Assembly (NCBI RefSeq): GCF_003991155.1
Contig: NZ_CP031297.1
Reading direction: 5' to 3' (one strand)
Length of the DNA stretch: 64,000 bases
From: Escherichia coli
Lineage (GTDB): Bacteria; Pseudomonadota; Gammaproteobacteria; Enterobacterales; Enterobacteriaceae
A program made the position numbers. Positions 49,601-55,600 of the stretch are shown here, one piece after another (position 1 is the first letter of the stretch; the number at the start of each line of letters is the position of its first letter).

Positions 49601-52600
49601 GCTACGGCGATCTATCTCCTCAGAGCTGCTTCGCGCCCAGCTTTCTGGCGTGACGTCCCATTCGATAAGAAACTTGAAGCCGTGGACAGCCTGAACAGCA
49701 TAGGGCGATCACCATCAGAACTCACTGAATGGATTAATAAATACCTGACAGCAGAGCAAATCAATAAACTCGGGACATCAATTAGGCAACGTCGCAGAAG
49801 GGGATATGGTGTTGGTAAAAGCATAACTATAAGCGATAAAGCCCACAGGATTTTGAAGCGGTTGTCAGAAGTCGATGGTTGCAGTTTGTCAGAAGTGATC
49901 GAGAAACGCCTAGCCCGAGCTTATAAAAATACATGGGACCATAAATAGAGTGACACTAGGGGTTGCATTTTTAAAACCCGTGATAGCATCTAAATGAACC
50001 CAAACGAATAGGGGGGCTGGCGGCGATGCCGACCATTATCCCGACAATGGAGAAATAGACCATGATGACATTGACTACCGTCTCGAAGAAAACTTCAAAT
50101 AATTCAGCCCTTGTATTCTGGCGCGTTGGTACAAAACGGAAAGGCATCCTTGATGTCCATATTGATTTTGACCACGAAGAAGCGGATCTTTTGGCTGAGC
50201 TCGTAGCCATTCGCTATCTGGCGCTGGACAAACAGGTTTTTTGCAGAGAGCCAGGTGCTGGTGCTGGTTACAAGCTGGTGGTATCCAAAGGTGCAATCAA
50301 GAAGCTGGCGCTGGGCAAATCCACCAAGGCTTTTGCTTTCAAGTTTGCGGCTTGCCTCACTGGGCGTTTAAAGGGCGCTACTATTGAAGTCTCGCAGAGC
50401 ATGGAGTTTATGGATGAGCCGGGAGAGGGCAACATTGAGCTCCTCGATGTGGACAAGCAAGCCTATACCCAGACCCATGACGAAATATCTACACCTGCCA
50501 TTGGCCCCGTCCTGGTTACTCAACATGCCATCGATCAGTATCAGGCCCGGATAACCTCTGGAGACCCTAAAAAACCGTGGGCCTCACTTGTTGGCCGCCT
50601 CCAGCATCCAGAGTTACAGGTTCAGCCCTTTGACGAGAAAGTGGCTCGCCATAAAGCCAGAAAGTATGGCCGCGTAGATAACGTGGAAGTCTGGGGCCAT
50701 AGAGATTCCAAGTTCAAGTACCTGATGGTGATCAACGACGACAACCAAAAACGTGTTCTTGTCACAGTGTTTGAGCGAAATGAGTAACCTGCTTCTCATT
50801 TGTTCTGAATACACAACCTCTCCAAATCACGTATTCATACCCTAAAAGGGCAATAACGCAGTCGTTGATAACGACTCTCCCACCTGAAAATAGCTCCAGC
50901 ATAAAAACTGGAGCTGTAAATGAGATCGAGACCTTCCCTTTTACTGATGCGAAACCTGCGGTCATTGGCCGTTGTGGTGCTCGCAACTTTGCCATGCGTT
51001 GCTTTTGCACAATGGCGGGTTGTAGCCGTGAGCACCGAAGTAGACAAAATGCGCTTCAACACCATCATAGACGCGCATTCCTTCATGAAGAATTATCGCT
51101 CTGGTGAGGAGCAAGGGAAGGGAACGCCAGTTGGGGATGCGCTTTATCCGGTTGCCAGTTATGGTGATGGCCGTTATGTCTCCAGGATCTGTTTTAAGTA
51201 TCTAGGTGCTACTGGCGATTATGACCCCACTACCTGCACTGGCGACCCAGCTACGGTCTACTGGCGCTCAACCTATGTTCTGCCGGGTGAGATGGATAAA
51301 ACACCGTTCCTGGACAGGGATCTCGGCTTACCAACAACGACCATGTGTGTAGGGAACCCTATCCATCTTGGCACCGGCAACAAGTTCCAGGCTGAACTGG
51401 ATTATCAAAGCGGAGGCTCCGACCCTTTCACATTCACCAGATACTACAATAGCCACCTTCCTGATGAAGAGCTCGGCGGCTGGCGGCATACCTACTCGCG
51501 GAGCGTCGAGGTCAACGCCTCGAAGTACGGTGAGAACATGGTTGTCCTGCACCGGCCAGAAGGGCAACAACTCGCGTTCTACAACTCGTCCTCTGTCTGG
51601 GTGCCAACATGGAAAACCGATGATACCTTGACGAAGGATGCTACCGGCTGGCGCTACACTCAATCTGACGGGGTAGTCGAGGCCTATGATGAAACCGGAC
51701 GACTGACCGGCATCGAGAAGCCCAACGGCAATCACATCACCCTGAGCTATCTGAACGGAGAGCTATCCTCGATCACTGACGGCTTTGGCCGCACCATCCA
51801 GTTCCAGTATCAAGATGGCCGCATGGTCAGTGTCACCGATCCTGCTGGTGGCAGTATTCAGTACCAGTACAACAGCGCTGGCAAGCTGGCGGAAGTGATC
51901 TACCAGGACAATACGAGCCGCAGCTATCTCTACGATGACCCGAATGCACCGGGTTTGCTCTCTGGGCTGGTGGACGAGAACGGCAACCGTTTCGCCACAT
52001 GGGGATATGATACTCAGGGGAGAGCGGTTCTAAGCGAACACGCCGGGGGCGCAGAGAAAACTCAGGTAAGCTACAACGCTGACGGAAGCGTCTCTGTCAC
52101 CAATGCCCTCGGCCACGTTCAGCGATACACCTACAGTCGCCACAATGGGATGCTCAAGCCTGATGTGGTTGAGGGTGCGCCGTGTACCGGCTTTGTGGGC
52201 GGCAAGGAAACCTACGTCTACGACAGCAAAGGCCTCGTCTCCAGCATTACTGACCGCGCTGGGCAGAAGCGCACGTTCACCCATAACGACCGGGGATTGG
52301 AAACCACCCAGATAGACCAGGACGGGGGTAAGGTTACGACCGACTGGCTTCCTTCCAAGTCGCTCCCGGCAAAAATCACAGAACCAACCAGGATCACTGA
52401 GCTCACCTACGACACTCATCTCCGGGTGATAAGCCGCAAGGTCACTGATCGCAGCTCGGGCGCTTCCCGGACATGGACCTACACCTATGCCCCTGTTGGT
52501 ACAGGAAAGCCGAGCCTGTTGGCCTCGGTTGATGGTCCGCGCACCGACGTCAGCGATGTTACGACATTTGACTACGATGACCAGGGCAACCTGATCCGGA

Positions 52601-55600
52601 CAACGAACGCGCTGGGGCAGGTGACGCAGTTTGGTGACTACGACGCGAACGGTCGCGCCGGGACCATTCAGGGTGTCAATGGTGTAACCCAAACCCTCAC
52701 CTATGACGCCAGAGGAAGACTTGTCAGCTCCACTGGGCCAGAAGGAACCACGGTCTACAACTATGATGCTGTGGGCCTCCTGAGTTCGCTGACCAAGCCA
52801 AATGGTGCAACCGTCAGCTATGAGTACGACGCTGCACATCGGCTGGTGGCGGAAACAGATGCACAGGGCAACCGGCGCGAGCTTGAGCTCAATGACCTCG
52901 GGAACCCAGTAGAAGAGCGACTGCTCGATGCGCTGGGCCAGACCCGTTGGATAGAGCGCCGGATCTTCAACGAAATCGGCTGGCTCTCCAGTGTCTCCGA
53001 CGCCTATAGCAATCAGTCATCGTTTTCCTACGATGTGGTGGCAAACCTGATACAGGAGACCAGTCCCTCTGGTAACACACACTCCTACAAGTACGACGGC
53101 TTCCATCACCGGACACAAACGACCGATCCCCTCGGGAAGGTCACGCAGGTGCTCTACAAGGATACCGGCGATGTTTACCGTGTCTCCGACCCTCGTTCGC
53201 GCCTGACCTACTACAGCTACAACGGCTTTGGCGAAGTGACCCAGGTCCGGAGCCCGGACACCGGCACCACCGACATTACCTATGACGAAGCCGGTAACGT
53301 GGCAACGCGCAAAACGGCCAAGGGGCAAACCACAAGCTACAGCTATGACGCGCTGAACCGGATCATCGAAACCTCCAGCGATGTCGCTGGCGAATCGCCA
53401 ATTCTGTACGGGTACGACGAAGCAACCTCACCATACGGCATAGGCCGCTTGACCTCAGTCGATGATGGCAACGGTGTCCGGAGATTTGGCTACACCCCCG
53501 AAGGATGGCTGGCTTACGAAACCTGGGAAACCCACGGGCAGAGCCTGACTACCCAGTACCAATACGATGGTGCAGGCCTCGTCACGAAGATCACGTATCC
53601 CAGTGGCCGTGAGGTCTCCTACACCCGTGACTCAGCCGGTGACGTCATCGAGGTGACAACGACACAAGCAGGCACCACAACAAACCTGGCAAGCCAGATT
53701 GAGCGAGCGCCCTTTGGCCCCGTCACCAGTATGGTCAGAGGGAACGGCATTTCAGAAAGCCGCACTCTGGATCTCGATTACCGTGTCACCGGCATCGACG
53801 CTGCTAGGGTGCATTCGCTGGTCTATCGGTACACGCCAGACTCGTTGATTTCAGCCATAGACGACAATCTCAGCTCATCAGTCAATCAGTCACTCGGTTA
53901 TGACGCGGTTGGCCGCATCACCTCTGCTGAGGGGATCTATGGCGTTTTGGGCTATGGCTATGACGCCACCGGCAACAGGACCTCGATCACGACCGATGGC
54001 CTGAGCCAAAGCTACACCATCAACTACATGAACAACTGGTTGGTGAAGGCCGGGCAAACCTCCAGAAGCTATGACGCCAATGGCAACCTGACGAAGCAGG
54101 GGGCGGATACCTTCACCTATGACAGCCAGAACCGGCTGGTGGCCGCAACGGTCGCGGGAGTGACTGTAAGCTACACATACAACCATCTGGATCAGCGTGT
54201 AACCAAGACCCTAAACGGGCATACCCGGCTGCTGGTTTACGACCTGGCAGGAAACCTCATCGAGGAGCTGGACGCGGCCACTGGAGACGTGCTGGCGGAG
54301 TACATCTGGCTCGATGGGACACCCTTGGGCTTTGTTCAGTCAGGACAGACCTACCAAGTCCACGTCGATCACCTGGGCACCCCGAAGGCACTGACCGACG
54401 TCAGCGGCCAAGTCGTTTGGAAGGCGAGCTACAGCCCGTTCGGTAAGGCCAGCATCATCATCCAGGGGCCAACCTTCAACCTGCGATTCCCAGGACAGTA
54501 TTACGACGCGGAGACCGGGTTCCACTACAACTGGCGGCGTTACTACGACCCAGCGACCGGGCGGTACATTACCAGCGACCCTCTTGGCCTGATCGATGGA
54601 GTAAACACCTACGGGTATGTGCATGGAAACCCTATGTCCAATACCGACCCGACGGGTGAATTTGCGTTTGTTGGTGCAGGTATTGGAGCTGGGTTGGAGC
54701 TACTTAGCCAACTAATCGAAAATAATGGGAGTTGGAAATGTGTTAGTTGGTCAAAAGTTGGAATCGCCGGAGCGATTGGGGCTATAGGTGGCGGCTGGGC
54801 GTCAGGAGTTTTCAGACATGCCAGCTCCGGTAAATCGTGGTTCAAATTAAGCCAAAAATGGAGCAATGTCTCACCCAGAGTAAGGAAAGTTCAAGGGGTT
54901 CCACGAGGTAATGAGCTTCACCATTGGGCTATTCAGAGAAATGGCAAGTTTGGCAAATATGTTCCTGACTCAATAAAAAACCATCCTTGGAACTTGAAGT
55001 CCATTCCAAGAGATATTCACCAAAACATTCACGGCAATGGACCTACCCCATATAGCGCATTTGGTCGTTGGTGGCACGGGACGCCTGAATGGGCAAAAGT
55101 AGCTCAAGCCTCTCCTGTTAGTGGTGGTTTAGCTGATTCAATAAATGATGAGGGATGCGGTTGTGCAAATTGAATTTCCAGCGCTGCTTGTGAGCAGCAA
55201 GAAAAGGTCGCTCTTCGTAGTGGCATCAGAATCCGAGTTCGGGAAATGTACTATTCAGTCTTTGAGGAACGGTTATTTTGAGCTGATGGACATTTATGAT
55301 TCGGAAGGTCGTCACTACAAAATAGACGAGGTTGCGAGCTACAAGCCGCTAAGTCCATTCTGGTACTGGCCTGTAGAAATTGTGATGTATGGTTCTCGAC
55401 TGTTTAAGGCTAATTTCAATGCTGTTCTTATCTCTAATCTGGATTGCAAGGAGTTAAAATCTGAACTTTGTGATTTGGCTAAAAAGTACAGAAGTAATTT
55501 GGATTCCGGCGTCGGAATTGAAAAGATTATGGAGGAAATGGAGTCTGCCAGAACAATTAAAGAATTGATAAAGGTTTTTGGCTAGTTATTCATTGAATAC

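What the first reader, a model, noticed from the sequence alone, without database searches (positions are those of the whole stretch)
50920..55585. Rhs polymorphic toxin with a distinct C-terminal domain containing an LHH motif, plus overlapping candidate immunity gene
The Rhs core ends at ...DPTGEF (about 54660). The last about 170 residues are encoded by visibly AT-richer DNA and include ...NELHHWAIQRNGKF...HQNIHGNG. The L-H-H tripeptide recalls the LHH family of HNH/EndoVII-fold toxin nucleases, but that is motif-level inference only. A 146-aa AT-rich ORF overlaps the rhs stop, the usual place for the cognate immunity gene. The pair lies 1.7 kb from the resistance island.
Basis: inference. 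Interest (0 to 1): 0.55.

Follow-up and report, generated by a model that had tools for sequence, protein, structure and literature searches.

The report
IncC plasmid Rhs toxin–immunity cassette
This is the well-known rhs1 gene of type 1 IncC multidrug-resistance plasmids: a Sec-signal Rhs toxin whose swappable tip is a previously unclassified HNH-type nuclease domain, followed by a matching immunity gene, which makes it an ordinary kind of system in a clinically important place.

Summary
A 1417-codon Rhs ORF (50920-55173) ends its conserved core at DPTGEF (54646-54663). It then continues into a 169-aa lower-GC tip containing ELHHW...NHPWNL...HQNIH. A small ORF overlaps the stop codon.

The window is IncC plasmid backbone and the gene is "rhs1", the type 1 typing marker. 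I found no functional study of it.

The tip has two parts: a hydrophobic Gly-rich helical hairpin and a ββα-metal (HNH/EndoVII-like) domain. No Pfam, NCBIfam or PDB-sequence model matches the tip. The HH dyad, two Asn and two helix His are conserved in 57-69 of 69 relatives, but the Leu is not (17/69). It is therefore not an LHH-family member as that family is defined; it looks like a sister family.

The downstream ORF (probably 55163-55585) belongs to a new family found directly after 11 of 14 homologous tips. It is also kept as an orphan where the toxin has been lost or displaced.

The 957-bp cassette begins one base after the DPTGEF codons. In other IncC plasmids it is replaced by EndoU+MafI (rhs2), an RNase Sa-like toxin+barstar, or a CDI-type toxin.

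The protein has a signal peptide and no PAAR domain, so how it is delivered is unknown.

The parts
50920..55173 (+). rhs1 gene of type 1 IncC plasmids, 1417 aa plus stop
   Evidence: ORF. YD_repeat, RHS_core and Rhs_assc_core models match. Pfam finds DUF6531, RHS_repeat and RHS. The region matches IncC plasmid records. Use as a typing marker: PMC6872532.
50920..51009 (+). Predicted Sec signal peptide, aa 1-30: MRSRPSLLLMRNLRSLAVVVLATLPCVAFA|Q. PGAP instead starts the gene at GTG 51028 and so omits it.
   Evidence: ATG 50920 has a GGAG ribosome-binding site. The hydrophobic core is aa 17-25 and an A-x-A cleavage site follows. The extension is identical at amino-acid level in the type 2 plasmid. 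Full-length relatives that carry this CT also start with signal peptides. PGAP start.
51352..51579 (+). DUF6531 domain (aa 145-220) at the start of the Rhs shell
   Evidence: Pfam E 4.6e-13
51685..54219 (+). RHS/YD repeat shell (about aa 256-1100)
   Evidence: At least 13 RHS_repeat matches; YD_repeat_2x matches
54430..54663 (+). Rhs-associated core, ending in DPLGL-x18-DPTGE-F (DPLGL at 54577-54591, DPTGEF at 54646-54663). This is the aspartyl autoproteolysis motif.
   Evidence: TIGR03696 E 1.1e-24. The motif can be read directly.
54665..55620 (+). Replaceable CT+immunity cassette. The boundaries are where homology with type 2 IncC is lost and regained.
   Evidence: blastn breakpoints at 54664 and 55621. 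The cassette itself (queried as 54664-55620) occurs in 522 PLSDB plasmids, 517 of them at 99% identity or more.
54664..54813 (+). Pre-toxin hydrophobic Gly/Ala-rich helical hairpin (aa 1249-1298)
   Evidence: Helices at CT residues 2-19 and 29-46 in the AF2 model, at low-to-medium confidence. Hydropathy peaks. Conserved in the CT family at profile positions 5-55. A different but analogous hairpin precedes three unrelated toxins in other IncC alleles.
54820..55170 (+). HNH/EndoVII-like (ββα-Me) toxin domain, aa 1301-1417. Key residues are H1334, H1335, N1354, N1358, H1367 and H1371, followed by G1387-x-P1389-x-W1391 and a terminal C1413-x-C1415.
55163..55585 (+). Cognate immunity gene (here called rhs1I), 140 aa from GTG 55163; the alternative ATG at 55145 gives 146 aa
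   Evidence: Conserved synteny, and a leave-window-out HMM scoring E 2.9e-18. Orphan copies are retained in other loci. No known family matches.
55619..55654 (+). Roughly 37-nt vestige of the start of an rhs core fragment; it repeats 54393-54431. It marks the right edge of the cassette.
   Evidence: blastn. Sequences read directly. The same junction continues into a full orphan core fragment in L017.

Best explanation
The region is the rhs1 toxin-immunity module of a type 1 IncC conjugative resistance plasmid.

Anatomy. Rhs1 has a Sec signal peptide and a YD-repeat shell. The shell ends in the self-cleaving motif DPLGL-x18-DPTGE. After that motif comes a 169-aa payload in two parts. The first is a hydrophobic glycine-rich helical hairpin. 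The second is a small ββα-metal (HNH/EndoVII superfamily) nuclease domain from a family not yet in Pfam. In that domain H1334, H1367 and H1371 would hold the metal, H1335 would activate water, and N1354 and N1358 would brace the loop.

Proposed mechanism. The protein is exported by Sec and the tip is cut free inside the shell. It is then delivered to a neighbouring bacterium by an unknown route that does not depend on PAAR. The hairpin helps the nuclease cross the target's inner membrane, and the nuclease degrades DNA. The 140-aa product of the overlapping downstream gene binds and blocks the nuclease in plasmid-carrying cells.

Cassette behaviour. The tip plus immunity gene is a recombination cassette. 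Other IncC plasmids carry EndoU+MafI (rhs2), RNase Sa-like+barstar, or a CDI-type toxin at the same junction.

What is shown. Architecture, motifs, fold class, family conservation, toxin-immunity linkage, cassette boundaries, and the existence of alleles and orphan immunity genes.

What is inferred. Export, cleavage, delivery route, role of the hairpin, DNase activity and neutralisation.
For: Identity and context. The region matches about 900-1000 PLSDB plasmids typed IncC/MOBH/MPF_F. The rhs1/rhs2 typing literature covers it.

Rhs architecture and cleavage motif.

CT family. There are 764 representatives at E<=1e-3. They sit at the C-termini of Rhs/YD proteins of 1500-3600 aa, about half showing a DPxG motif just upstream.

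Residues. H1334 is conserved in 68/69, H1335 in 69/69, N1354 in 64, N1358 in 67, H1367 in 62 (Asn in 6) and H1371 in 57. This is the HH-plus-two-helix-His pattern described for derived HNH toxins (PMC3113570). The N-x8-H-x3-H spacing equals that of colicin E9 DNase (sequence verified).

Immunity. Same-family ORFs lie directly downstream of 11 of 14 CT domains in 12 unrelated loci. A leave-window-out HMM scores the window ORF at E 2.9e-18 and hits no other ORF among 924. One exception has a SUKH-1 immunity gene instead. Toxins are about 30-61% identical while their partner immunity proteins show at most about 20-30% identity over long alignments, several with no meaningful pairwise alignment.

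Orphan immunity. rhs1I is retained after the rhs1 tip was displaced in pVPS129 and pKHM-1. It is also retained after rhs was deleted in L016, and is present twice in the L017 array.

Alleles. rhs2 carries EndoU (Pfam 1.6e-9) with MafI. pKHM-1 carries an RNase Sa-like toxin (E 2e-21) with barstar. The pVPS129 tip matches PDB 8ey4 (E 5e-34).

Against: The classical Cys4 zinc site of many HNH domains is absent. The most conserved elements after HH are G-x-P-x-W and a terminal CxC, whose roles are unexplained.

A Sec signal on a Gram-negative Rhs leaves no known route from the periplasm to a target cell.

rhs is often interrupted or truncated in clinical IncC plasmids (PMC9709138, PMC6872532, PMC11459957), so it is dispensable in those settings. 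The cassette is nearly clonal, so within-plasmid conservation says little about selection.

No promoter-like site was found just upstream of the gene.
Confidence: 0.72

Rival explanations
1. The tip is a bona fide member of the LHH toxin family (Pfam PF14411).
For: It has an ELHH motif followed by two helix histidines. Foldseek hit an AFDB protein named 'LHH domain-containing protein' at E 2.9e-4 with 28% identity. A SUKH-1 immunity gene, the partner typical of LHH toxins, follows one relative (PMC3113570).
Against: Pfam finds no LHH match, even at E<=10 for the query and E<=0.1 for 69 relatives. The Leu is present in only 17 of 69 relatives (Val 25, Ala 8), while the following Trp is commoner at 51 of 69. 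The family has its own extra motifs (NHPWNL, GTPxWAK, CxC). Its usual immunity partner is a different, unassigned family.
Confidence: 0.15
2. Rhs1 is a conventional T6SS effector that relies on the host's type VI system.
For: Most characterised Gram-negative Rhs toxins are T6SS-delivered (abstracts listed). Many IncC hosts, such as Klebsiella, Salmonella and Vibrio, have a T6SS (my own knowledge).
Against: Pfam finds no PAAR, prePAAR or VgrG-binding domain in aa 1-1200. No vgrG, hcp, EagR or DUF1795 gene lies nearby. The N-terminus is a classical cleavable signal peptide, as in other Rhs proteins that carry this tip. Sec/T2SS-type Rhs toxins are a recognised bioinformatic class (PMC3482391 Table 1). 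A broad-host-range plasmid cannot count on a compatible T6SS being present.
Confidence: 0.12
3. The tip is a membrane-damaging toxin that acts through its glycine-zipper helices, and the His motif is only a structural metal site.
Against: The analogous hairpin in other IncC alleles precedes three unrelated soluble toxin domains: EndoU, an RNase Sa-like RNase, and a tip matching the solved chain 8ey4. It therefore behaves as a carrier rather than as the toxin. The strongest conservation is in the HNH-type residues. The core alone folds confidently as ββα-Me.
Confidence: 0.07
4. The pair has no competitive role. It is either a decaying hitch-hiker or an intracellular addiction (toxin-antitoxin-like) module that stabilises the plasmid.
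For: rhs is a frequent insertion and deletion site and is often truncated without loss of plasmid spread. The cassette is nearly clonal. Plasmid-borne toxin/antidote pairs often act as addiction systems (PMC3482391).
Against: A 1417-codon ORF with intact signal peptide, cleavage motif and catalytic residues is maintained in about 500 plasmids. At least four alleles have been exchanged exactly at the cleavage motif. Orphan immunity genes are retained after toxin loss, which implies exposure to incoming toxin rather than self-addiction. A Sec-exported, shell-enclosed toxin is poorly suited to post-segregational killing.
Confidence: 0.1

Closest known systems
LHH / AHH / WHH toxin domains of polymorphic toxin systems (derived HNH/EndoVII fold; Zhang et al. 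2011, PMC3113570)
   Same: A small C-terminal toxin domain on Rhs/CDI-type carriers. It has an HH dyad at the end of the first strand and two His in the following helix, with no Cys4 zinc site. Foldseek links it to an LHH-annotated protein.
   Different: No Pfam model matches. The residue before HH is variable. The family has its own motifs (HHW, NHPWNL, GTPxWAK, terminal CxC). Its usual immunity partner is a new 130-150-aa family rather than SUKH.
Colicin E9/E7 DNase domain with Im9/Im7
   Different: There is no detectable profile similarity (hhalign probability 0.4%). The HH-to-N loop is 8 residues longer. The carrier is an Rhs shell with a signal peptide rather than colicin receptor and translocation domains. 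The immunity proteins are unrelated.
rhs2 of type 2 IncC plasmids (EndoU nuclease + MafI immunity)
   Same: The same gene at the same plasmid site, with a core 96% identical up to the DPTGEF codon. It also has a hydrophobic hairpin, then a nuclease, then an overlapping immunity gene.
   Different: The toxin is an EndoU-type RNase and the immunity protein is MafI. That cassette is 1412 bp and carries two extra small membrane-protein ORFs. No rhs1I homologue was found in the 10.7 kb examined, and no MafI homologue in the 64-kb window.
Sec-dependent Rhs/WapA-type polymorphic toxins (Bacillus WapA; the 'T2SS/Sec' class of Zhang et al. 2012, PMC3482391)
   Same: An N-terminal signal peptide, YD repeats, a variable toxic tip and a downstream immunity gene.
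   Different: WapA acts from a Gram-positive cell wall (my own knowledge). Here the producer is Gram-negative, so an outer-membrane step is needed and is unknown.
T6SS Rhs nuclease effectors (for example Dickeya RhsB with an HNH tip; Aeromonas TseI)
   Same: An Rhs shell with a DPxG self-cleavage site, a nuclease tip and cognate immunity. Orphan core-fragment/tip/immunity modules occur downstream, as in L017.
   Different: There is no PAAR or VgrG linkage, and a signal peptide is present instead.

Membership tests
Rhs/YD-repeat polymorphic toxin | YD/RHS repeats forming the shell | tested here: met
   TIGR01643 E 4.8e-55 with 9 stretches. At least 13 Pfam RHS_repeat matches plus DUF6531.
Rhs/YD-repeat polymorphic toxin | Rhs-associated core ending in DPxGL-x18-DPxG, with the variable tip starting right after it | tested here: met
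   TIGR03696 E 1.1e-24. DPLGL-x18-DPTGE can be read directly. Homology with the other alleles ends at 54664, one base after the motif.
Rhs/YD-repeat polymorphic toxin | Cognate immunity gene immediately downstream | tested here: met
   Met by conserved linkage: 11 of 14 homologous tips are followed by the same family, with a leave-one-out E of 2.9e-18. Orphan copies are retained. Protection itself was not tested.
Rhs/YD-repeat polymorphic toxin | Tip is toxic and is neutralised by the immunity protein | not testable with these tools
   Needs expression and competition assays.
LHH toxin family (Pfam PF14411) | Match to the family's profile HMM | tested here: not met
   No Pfam hit for the tip at E<=10. 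No LHH, AHH or WHH hit in any of 69 relatives at E<=0.1.
LHH toxin family (Pfam PF14411) | Nearly absolutely conserved L-H-H tripeptide (PMC3113570) | tested here: not met
   HH is conserved in 68-69 of 69, but the preceding residue is V 25, L 17 and A 8 of 69. Among 159 domains it is V 49, L 34, G 22 and A 18.
LHH toxin family (Pfam PF14411) | Two further His in the helix, aligned with the HNH metal ligands | tested here: met
   H1367 in 62 of 69 (Asn in 6) and H1371 in 57 of 69, both in helix 64-70 of the model.
HNH/EndoVII (His-Me finger) superfamily | ββα-metal topology with the catalytic His at the end of strand 1 | tested here: met
   In the AF2 core model (pLDDT 90.8), strand 31-35 ends in HH(W), followed by strand 59-63 and helix 64-70.
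HNH/EndoVII (His-Me finger) superfamily | Significant structural similarity to solved HNH nucleases | tested here: inconclusive
HNH/EndoVII (His-Me finger) superfamily | Sequence-profile similarity to a known HNH family | tested here: not met
   Pfam none. PDB profile search none. hhalign against colicin E9 DNase gives probability 0.4%.
HNH/EndoVII (His-Me finger) superfamily | Metal-dependent nuclease activity | not testable with these tools
   Needs biochemistry.
T6SS-delivered Rhs effector | PAAR/prePAAR or VgrG-interacting N-terminus, or linkage to vgrG, hcp or a chaperone gene | tested here: not met
   Pfam on aa 1-1200 finds only DUF6531, RHS_repeat and RHS. The neighbouring genes are plasmid backbone hypotheticals. 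The N-terminus is a signal peptide.
SUKH-type immunity (usual partner of HNH-fold toxins) | Immunity protein matches SMI1/KNR4 or other SUKH models | tested here: not met
   The window ORF has no Pfam hit. Only the ORF downstream of one distant relative (L008) matches SMI1_KNR4, at E 5.6e-4.

The most novel reading that the evidence does not exclude
IncC plasmid lineages are armed with lineage-specific Rhs toxin/immunity cassettes that are Sec-exported and independent of T6SS: HNH-like in type 1, EndoU in type 2, and rarer RNase Sa-like and CDI-type alleles. Cells carrying one lineage would then kill plasmid-free neighbours and hosts of the other lineage, possibly during the close contact of mating. 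The rhs1/rhs2 'typing markers' would in that case be determinants of plasmid competition and of which IncC type prevails in a niche. The conserved hydrophobic hairpin would be a portable module that carries nucleases across the target's inner membrane.
Probability: 0.2. Interest if true: 0.7.

Novelty: new member of a known kind. Interest (0 to 1): 0.42.

Why it matters
IncC plasmids are among the main carriers of blaCMY, blaNDM and other resistance genes across Enterobacterales, Vibrio and Aeromonas. Their two lineages are told apart partly by rhs1 versus rhs2, yet I found no study of what these genes do.

This analysis shows that the markers are alternative nuclease-toxin/immunity cassettes, swapped exactly at the Rhs cleavage motif. 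It also shows that further alleles and orphan immunity genes exist. Together these give a concrete, testable reason why the lineages might exclude each other, or why plasmid-bearing cells might suppress plasmid-free neighbours.

The analysis also defines two protein families missing from Pfam: an xHHW HNH-like toxin domain with about 760 representative clusters, and its 130-150-aa immunity partner. It points to a signal-peptide Rhs class in Gram-negative bacteria whose delivery route is unknown.

As a kind of system, an Rhs toxin with a nuclease tip and an immunity gene, it is ordinary.

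Tried and rejected
Family searches that found nothing.
- Pfam on the tip, on the immunity ORF and on 69 family members found nothing relevant.
- NCBIfam, PADLOC and PHROGs found nothing for the tip or the immunity ORF.
- PDB sequence-profile searches found nothing for the tip and only noise for the immunity family.

Structure comparisons.
- hhalign of the family profile against colicin E9 DNase gave no similarity (probability 0.4%). The resemblance to colicin DNases is therefore only at motif level.

Searches for more loci.
With A1 it found only 2 loci among 100,044 representative genomes, so linkage was tested on loci fetched one at a time.
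- I hoped to see toxin-immunity co-variation among plasmid copies, but the cassette is clonal: 517 of 522 copies are at least 99% identical.

Regulation and literature.
- The promoter and terminator scan gave fewer sites than shuffled sequence and nothing useful upstream of rhs.
- Literature searches for a functional study, AcaCD regulation or transcriptome data on IncC rhs returned only typing or insertion-site mentions.

Ideas rejected.
- Lipoprotein: the sequence before Cys26 (TLPC) does not fit a lipobox (my own knowledge of the consensus).
- T6SS effector: no PAAR domain.
- TA-like addiction module: the toxin is Sec-exported and enclosed in a shell.

Full report
**1. The observation**

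The ORF 50920-55173 (+) encodes 1417 aa. The sequence DPTGEF occupies aa 1243-1248 (nt 54646-54663), and 169 residues follow it. These include NELHHWAIQRNGKF and HQNIHGNG, with L1333-H1334-H1335.

GC falls from 0.56-0.60 in the core to 0.39-0.48 beyond 54600. The core is 57.5% GC and the tip plus downstream ORF 44.0%.

A 146-aa ORF (55145-55585) overlaps the rhs stop. Its likelier start is GTG 55163, for three reasons:
- it has a GAGG ribosome-binding site;
- PGAP uses it;
- homology resumes exactly there in three other loci.

The resistance island (mer genes and IS4321) ends about 1.7 kb upstream of rhs.

**2. Where the window comes from**

The segment is at least 99% identical to hundreds of conjugative plasmids typed IncC / MOBH / MPF_F, from Klebsiella, Salmonella, Escherichia, Vibrio, Aeromonas and others.

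The gene is "rhs1". Together with orf1832 it defines type 1 IncC plasmids, while type 2 carries rhs2 (PMC6872532, PMC7652850, PMC11628540). In the papers I could search, rhs appears only as a typing marker or as an insertion and deletion site. I found no functional study.

**3. Anatomy of Rhs1**

| Element | Residues | Evidence |
|---|---|---|
| DUF6531 | aa 145-220 | Pfam |
| RHS repeats | about aa 256-1100 | Pfam, NCBIfam |
| RHS / Rhs-associated core | to aa 1248 | Pfam, NCBIfam |

The core ends in DPLGL-x18-DPTGE, the Rhs aspartyl self-cleavage motif (read directly; its function rests on established knowledge of Rhs proteins). No PAAR or VgrG-related domain was found.

The first 30 residues, MRSRPSLLLMRNLRSLAVVVLATLPCVAFA|Q, look like a cleavable Sec signal peptide, and the ATG at 50920 has a GGAG ribosome-binding site. 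PGAP starts the gene 36 codons later and so drops the signal peptide. Two observations favour the longer ORF. The extension is identical at amino-acid level in a type 2 plasmid, and unrelated full-length Rhs proteins carrying the same tip also begin with signal peptides.

**4. The C-terminal tip**

No Pfam, NCBIfam, PADLOC, PHROGs or PDB-sequence model matches it. It is nevertheless a real family:
- a word-indexed search found 12 relatives;
- an exhaustive profile search found 764 representative clusters at E<=1e-3, 303 of them at E<=1e-10;
- many lie at the C-termini of Rhs/YD proteins of 1500-3600 aa, and about half show a DPxG motif just upstream.

The first roughly 50 residues form two hydrophobic Gly/Ala-rich helices. 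The rest was modelled with 69 relatives at mean pLDDT 90.8. That model shows a strand ending in ELHHW, a second strand, and a helix carrying H-x3-H, which is the ββα-metal arrangement.

Column conservation in 69 relatives:

| Residue | Conserved in |
|---|---|
| H1334 | 68 |
| H1335 | 69 |
| N1354 | 64 |
| N1358 | 67 |
| H1367 | 62 (Asn in 6) |
| H1371 | 57 |

This is the pattern Zhang et al. describe for derived HNH toxins. In their account the first His is a metal ligand, the second activates water, and two helix His are further ligands (PMC3113570). The N-x8-H-x3-H spacing equals that of colicin E9 DNase, whose sequence I verified against PDB 1bxi. A profile comparison with E9 finds nothing, however.

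**5. Is it "LHH"?**

Not as the family is defined. The Pfam model fails on the query and on all 69 relatives. The Leu is present in only 17 of 69 (Val 25, Ala 8), whereas the Trp after HH is present in 51 of 69. The family also has motifs of its own: NHPWNL, G1387-x-P1389-x-W1391 (65-69 of 69), and a terminal CxC (about 50 of 69).

I read it as a sister family within the derived HNH/EndoVII toxins.

**6. The downstream ORF**

It matches no known family. Its close homologues are nearly all at 86% identity or more, and those I traced lie on IncC-type or related Rhs loci.

I fetched 12 other loci that encode the tip family. Of 14 tip domains, 11 are followed immediately, on the same strand, by an ORF of one family of 126-155 aa. 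An HMM built without the window sequence scores the window ORF at E 2.9e-18 and hits nothing else among 924 stop-to-stop ORFs.

The three exceptions are:
- one locus (L008) followed by a SUKH-1 (SMI1/KNR4) gene (Pfam E 5.6e-4);
- a second tip copy in L010 followed by a 27%-identical relative of that gene;
- one locus (L012) where an opposite-strand gene follows the tip and the contig ends about 670 nt downstream.

Tips are about 30-61% identical to Rhs1-CT. Their partner immunity proteins show at most about 20-30% identity over long alignments, and several gave no meaningful pairwise alignment, which is the usual asymmetry for toxin-immunity pairs.

**7. The cassette and its alleles**

Against a type 2 IncC plasmid, homology (96%) ends at 54664, one base after the DPTGEF codons. 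It resumes at 55621.

| Allele | Toxin tip | Following genes | PLSDB records |
|---|---|---|---|
| rhs1 (this window) | HNH-like | rhs1I | 522 |
| rhs2 (type 2) | EndoU (Pfam 1.6e-9) | MafI immunity, two small membrane ORFs | 368 |
| pKHM-1 (IncC) | RNase Sa/barnase-like (E 2e-21) | barstar, then the last 92 bp of the rhs1 tip and rhs1I | 5 |
| pVPS129 (IncC) | matches PDB 8ey4 (E 5e-34) | CPCC cysteine-rich protein, then orphan rhs1I (132/140 identical) | 1 |

Three further observations:
- A related backbone (L016) has lost rhs except for its first ~50 codons, yet keeps rhs1I (88% aa).
- Contig L017 has an rhs core 95% identical to the IncC core, a Tox-SHH tip, and an array of orphan modules. 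These include two orphan rhs1I copies and a 55%-identical paralogue of the Rhs1 tip with its own family immunity gene.
- The 37-nt sequence at 55619-55654 repeats 54393-54431. It is the stump of such an orphan core fragment, and in L017 the same junction continues into a full fragment.

Retention of orphan immunity genes after toxin loss or displacement argues that the immunity is used, and hence that the Rhs1 toxin is met in nature.

**8. The hairpin**

rhs2, pVPS129 and pKHM-1 share a second hairpin sequence (VPLLLGAYVAIDFALSAWDAY...GGLFAAG.ILPGNY). It sits between DPTGEF and three unrelated toxin domains: EndoU, the 8ey4-like tip and the RNase Sa-like RNase. Rhs1 has an analogous but different hairpin that is conserved within its own tip family.

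A hydrophobic two-helix element placed in front of several unrelated toxin domains, at least three of them predicted nucleases, is most simply a membrane-translocation aid. This is inference.

**9. Mechanism, rivals and unknowns**

My best explanation, at about 0.8 for a toxin/immunity pair and about 0.7 for a metal-dependent DNase, runs as follows:
1. Sec exports the protein.
2. It cleaves itself at DPTGE|F.
3. It reaches a neighbouring cell by an unknown route that does not involve PAAR.
4. The hairpin assists crossing of the target's inner membrane.
5. The HNH-type domain cleaves DNA.
6. Rhs1I neutralises the toxin in plasmid-bearing cells.

Rivals considered were true LHH membership (0.15), T6SS delivery (0.12), a membrane toxin (0.07), and a relic or addiction module (0.10).

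Weak points:
- no known route out of a Gram-negative periplasm;
- frequent disruption of rhs in clinical plasmids;
- clonal conservation of the cassette;
- unexplained GTPxWAK and CxC motifs;
- no promoter found upstream.

**10. Novelty and verdict**

The gene and its rhs1/rhs2 polymorphism are already known as markers. An Rhs protein with a nuclease tip and an immunity gene is a known kind of system.

What is new here is the assignment of the rhs1 tip to an unclassified HNH-like family with its own immunity family, the signal peptide and absence of PAAR, and the finding that the IncC rhs locus is a multi-allele toxin/immunity site with orphan immunities.

I rate it a new member of a known kind, of moderate interest. 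The interesting open reading is lineage-specific plasmid warfare independent of T6SS, to which I give about 0.2.

Noticed in passing
window 50920-51028: NCBI's PGAP annotation pipeline starts rhs at GTG 51028. This omits 36 codons that encode a classical signal peptide and are identical at amino-acid level in type 1 and type 2 IncC plasmids. The ATG at 50920 has a GGAG ribosome-binding site.
   Followed up: yes
window 54393-54431 and 55619-55654: A roughly 37-nt direct repeat. The second copy is a stump of the start of an rhs core fragment and sits exactly at the right edge of the variable cassette. In L017 the same junction continues into a full orphan core fragment.
   Followed up: yes
window 55078-55170 (aa 1387-1417): In the toxin family, G-x-P-x-W (65-69 of 69) and a terminal C-x-C (about 50 of 69), preceded by a long small-residue helix, are as conserved as the catalytic residues. 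Their role is unexplained; metal binding, DNA contact or contact with the immunity protein are possibilities.
   Followed up: partly
window 50062-50787: A 241-aa ORF of unknown function lies directly upstream of rhs in all IncC alleles examined. It is retained even in L016, where rhs is deleted. It has no NCBIfam or PHROGs match.
   Followed up: partly
window 49547-49948: A 133-aa ORF with a weak match to MatP/ribbon-helix-helix models (NCBIfam NF003471, E 5.8e-8, well below the family cut-off).
   Followed up: no
window 55756-56208: A 150-aa ORF with an N-terminal signal or lipoprotein-like sequence (MKNKKVITLIMAAAASCSS). It is conserved downstream of every rhs allele and is not part of the variable cassette.
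   Followed up: no
window 44923-48931: The end of the resistance island: merA, merP, merT and merR, followed by an IS4321 (IS110-family) transposase gene. Backbone homology with other A/C plasmids resumes by 49209.
   Followed up: partly
window 58201-60091: A tyrosine recombinase (338 aa) followed by a 3'-5' exonuclease (289 aa), conserved in all IncC loci examined. The literature places a recombination hot spot (RecHS) between rhs and int (PMC9709138).
   Followed up: no
L017 1-11700 (GCA_050432385.1, contig JBMKAO010000014.1): An rhs locus whose core is 95% identical to the IncC core, with a Tox-SHH tip and DUF7668 partner. It is followed by at least five core fragments with orphan tips and immunity genes, including two orphan rhs1I copies. 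I did not establish whether this contig is a plasmid.
   Followed up: partly
L016 4826-5573 (Logan SRR15185036 contig): An A/C-like backbone (83-91% nt identity) in which rhs is reduced to its first ~50 codons fused to unrelated sequence. The rhs1I immunity gene is intact, and an extra 203-aa ORF follows it.
   Followed up: partly
L015 14777-16692 (IncA plasmid pCf587): This IncA plasmid has no rhs at the equivalent site, where the mer island abuts the backbone. About 6 kb further on it encodes a PAAR domain protein followed by a small ORF, which may be a different, T6SS-type toxin pair.
   Followed up: no
L006 5357-5946 (type 2 IncC): The rhs2 cassette carries two extra small ORFs (80 and 99 aa) with predicted transmembrane helices after the MafI gene. 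Their function is unknown.
   Followed up: no
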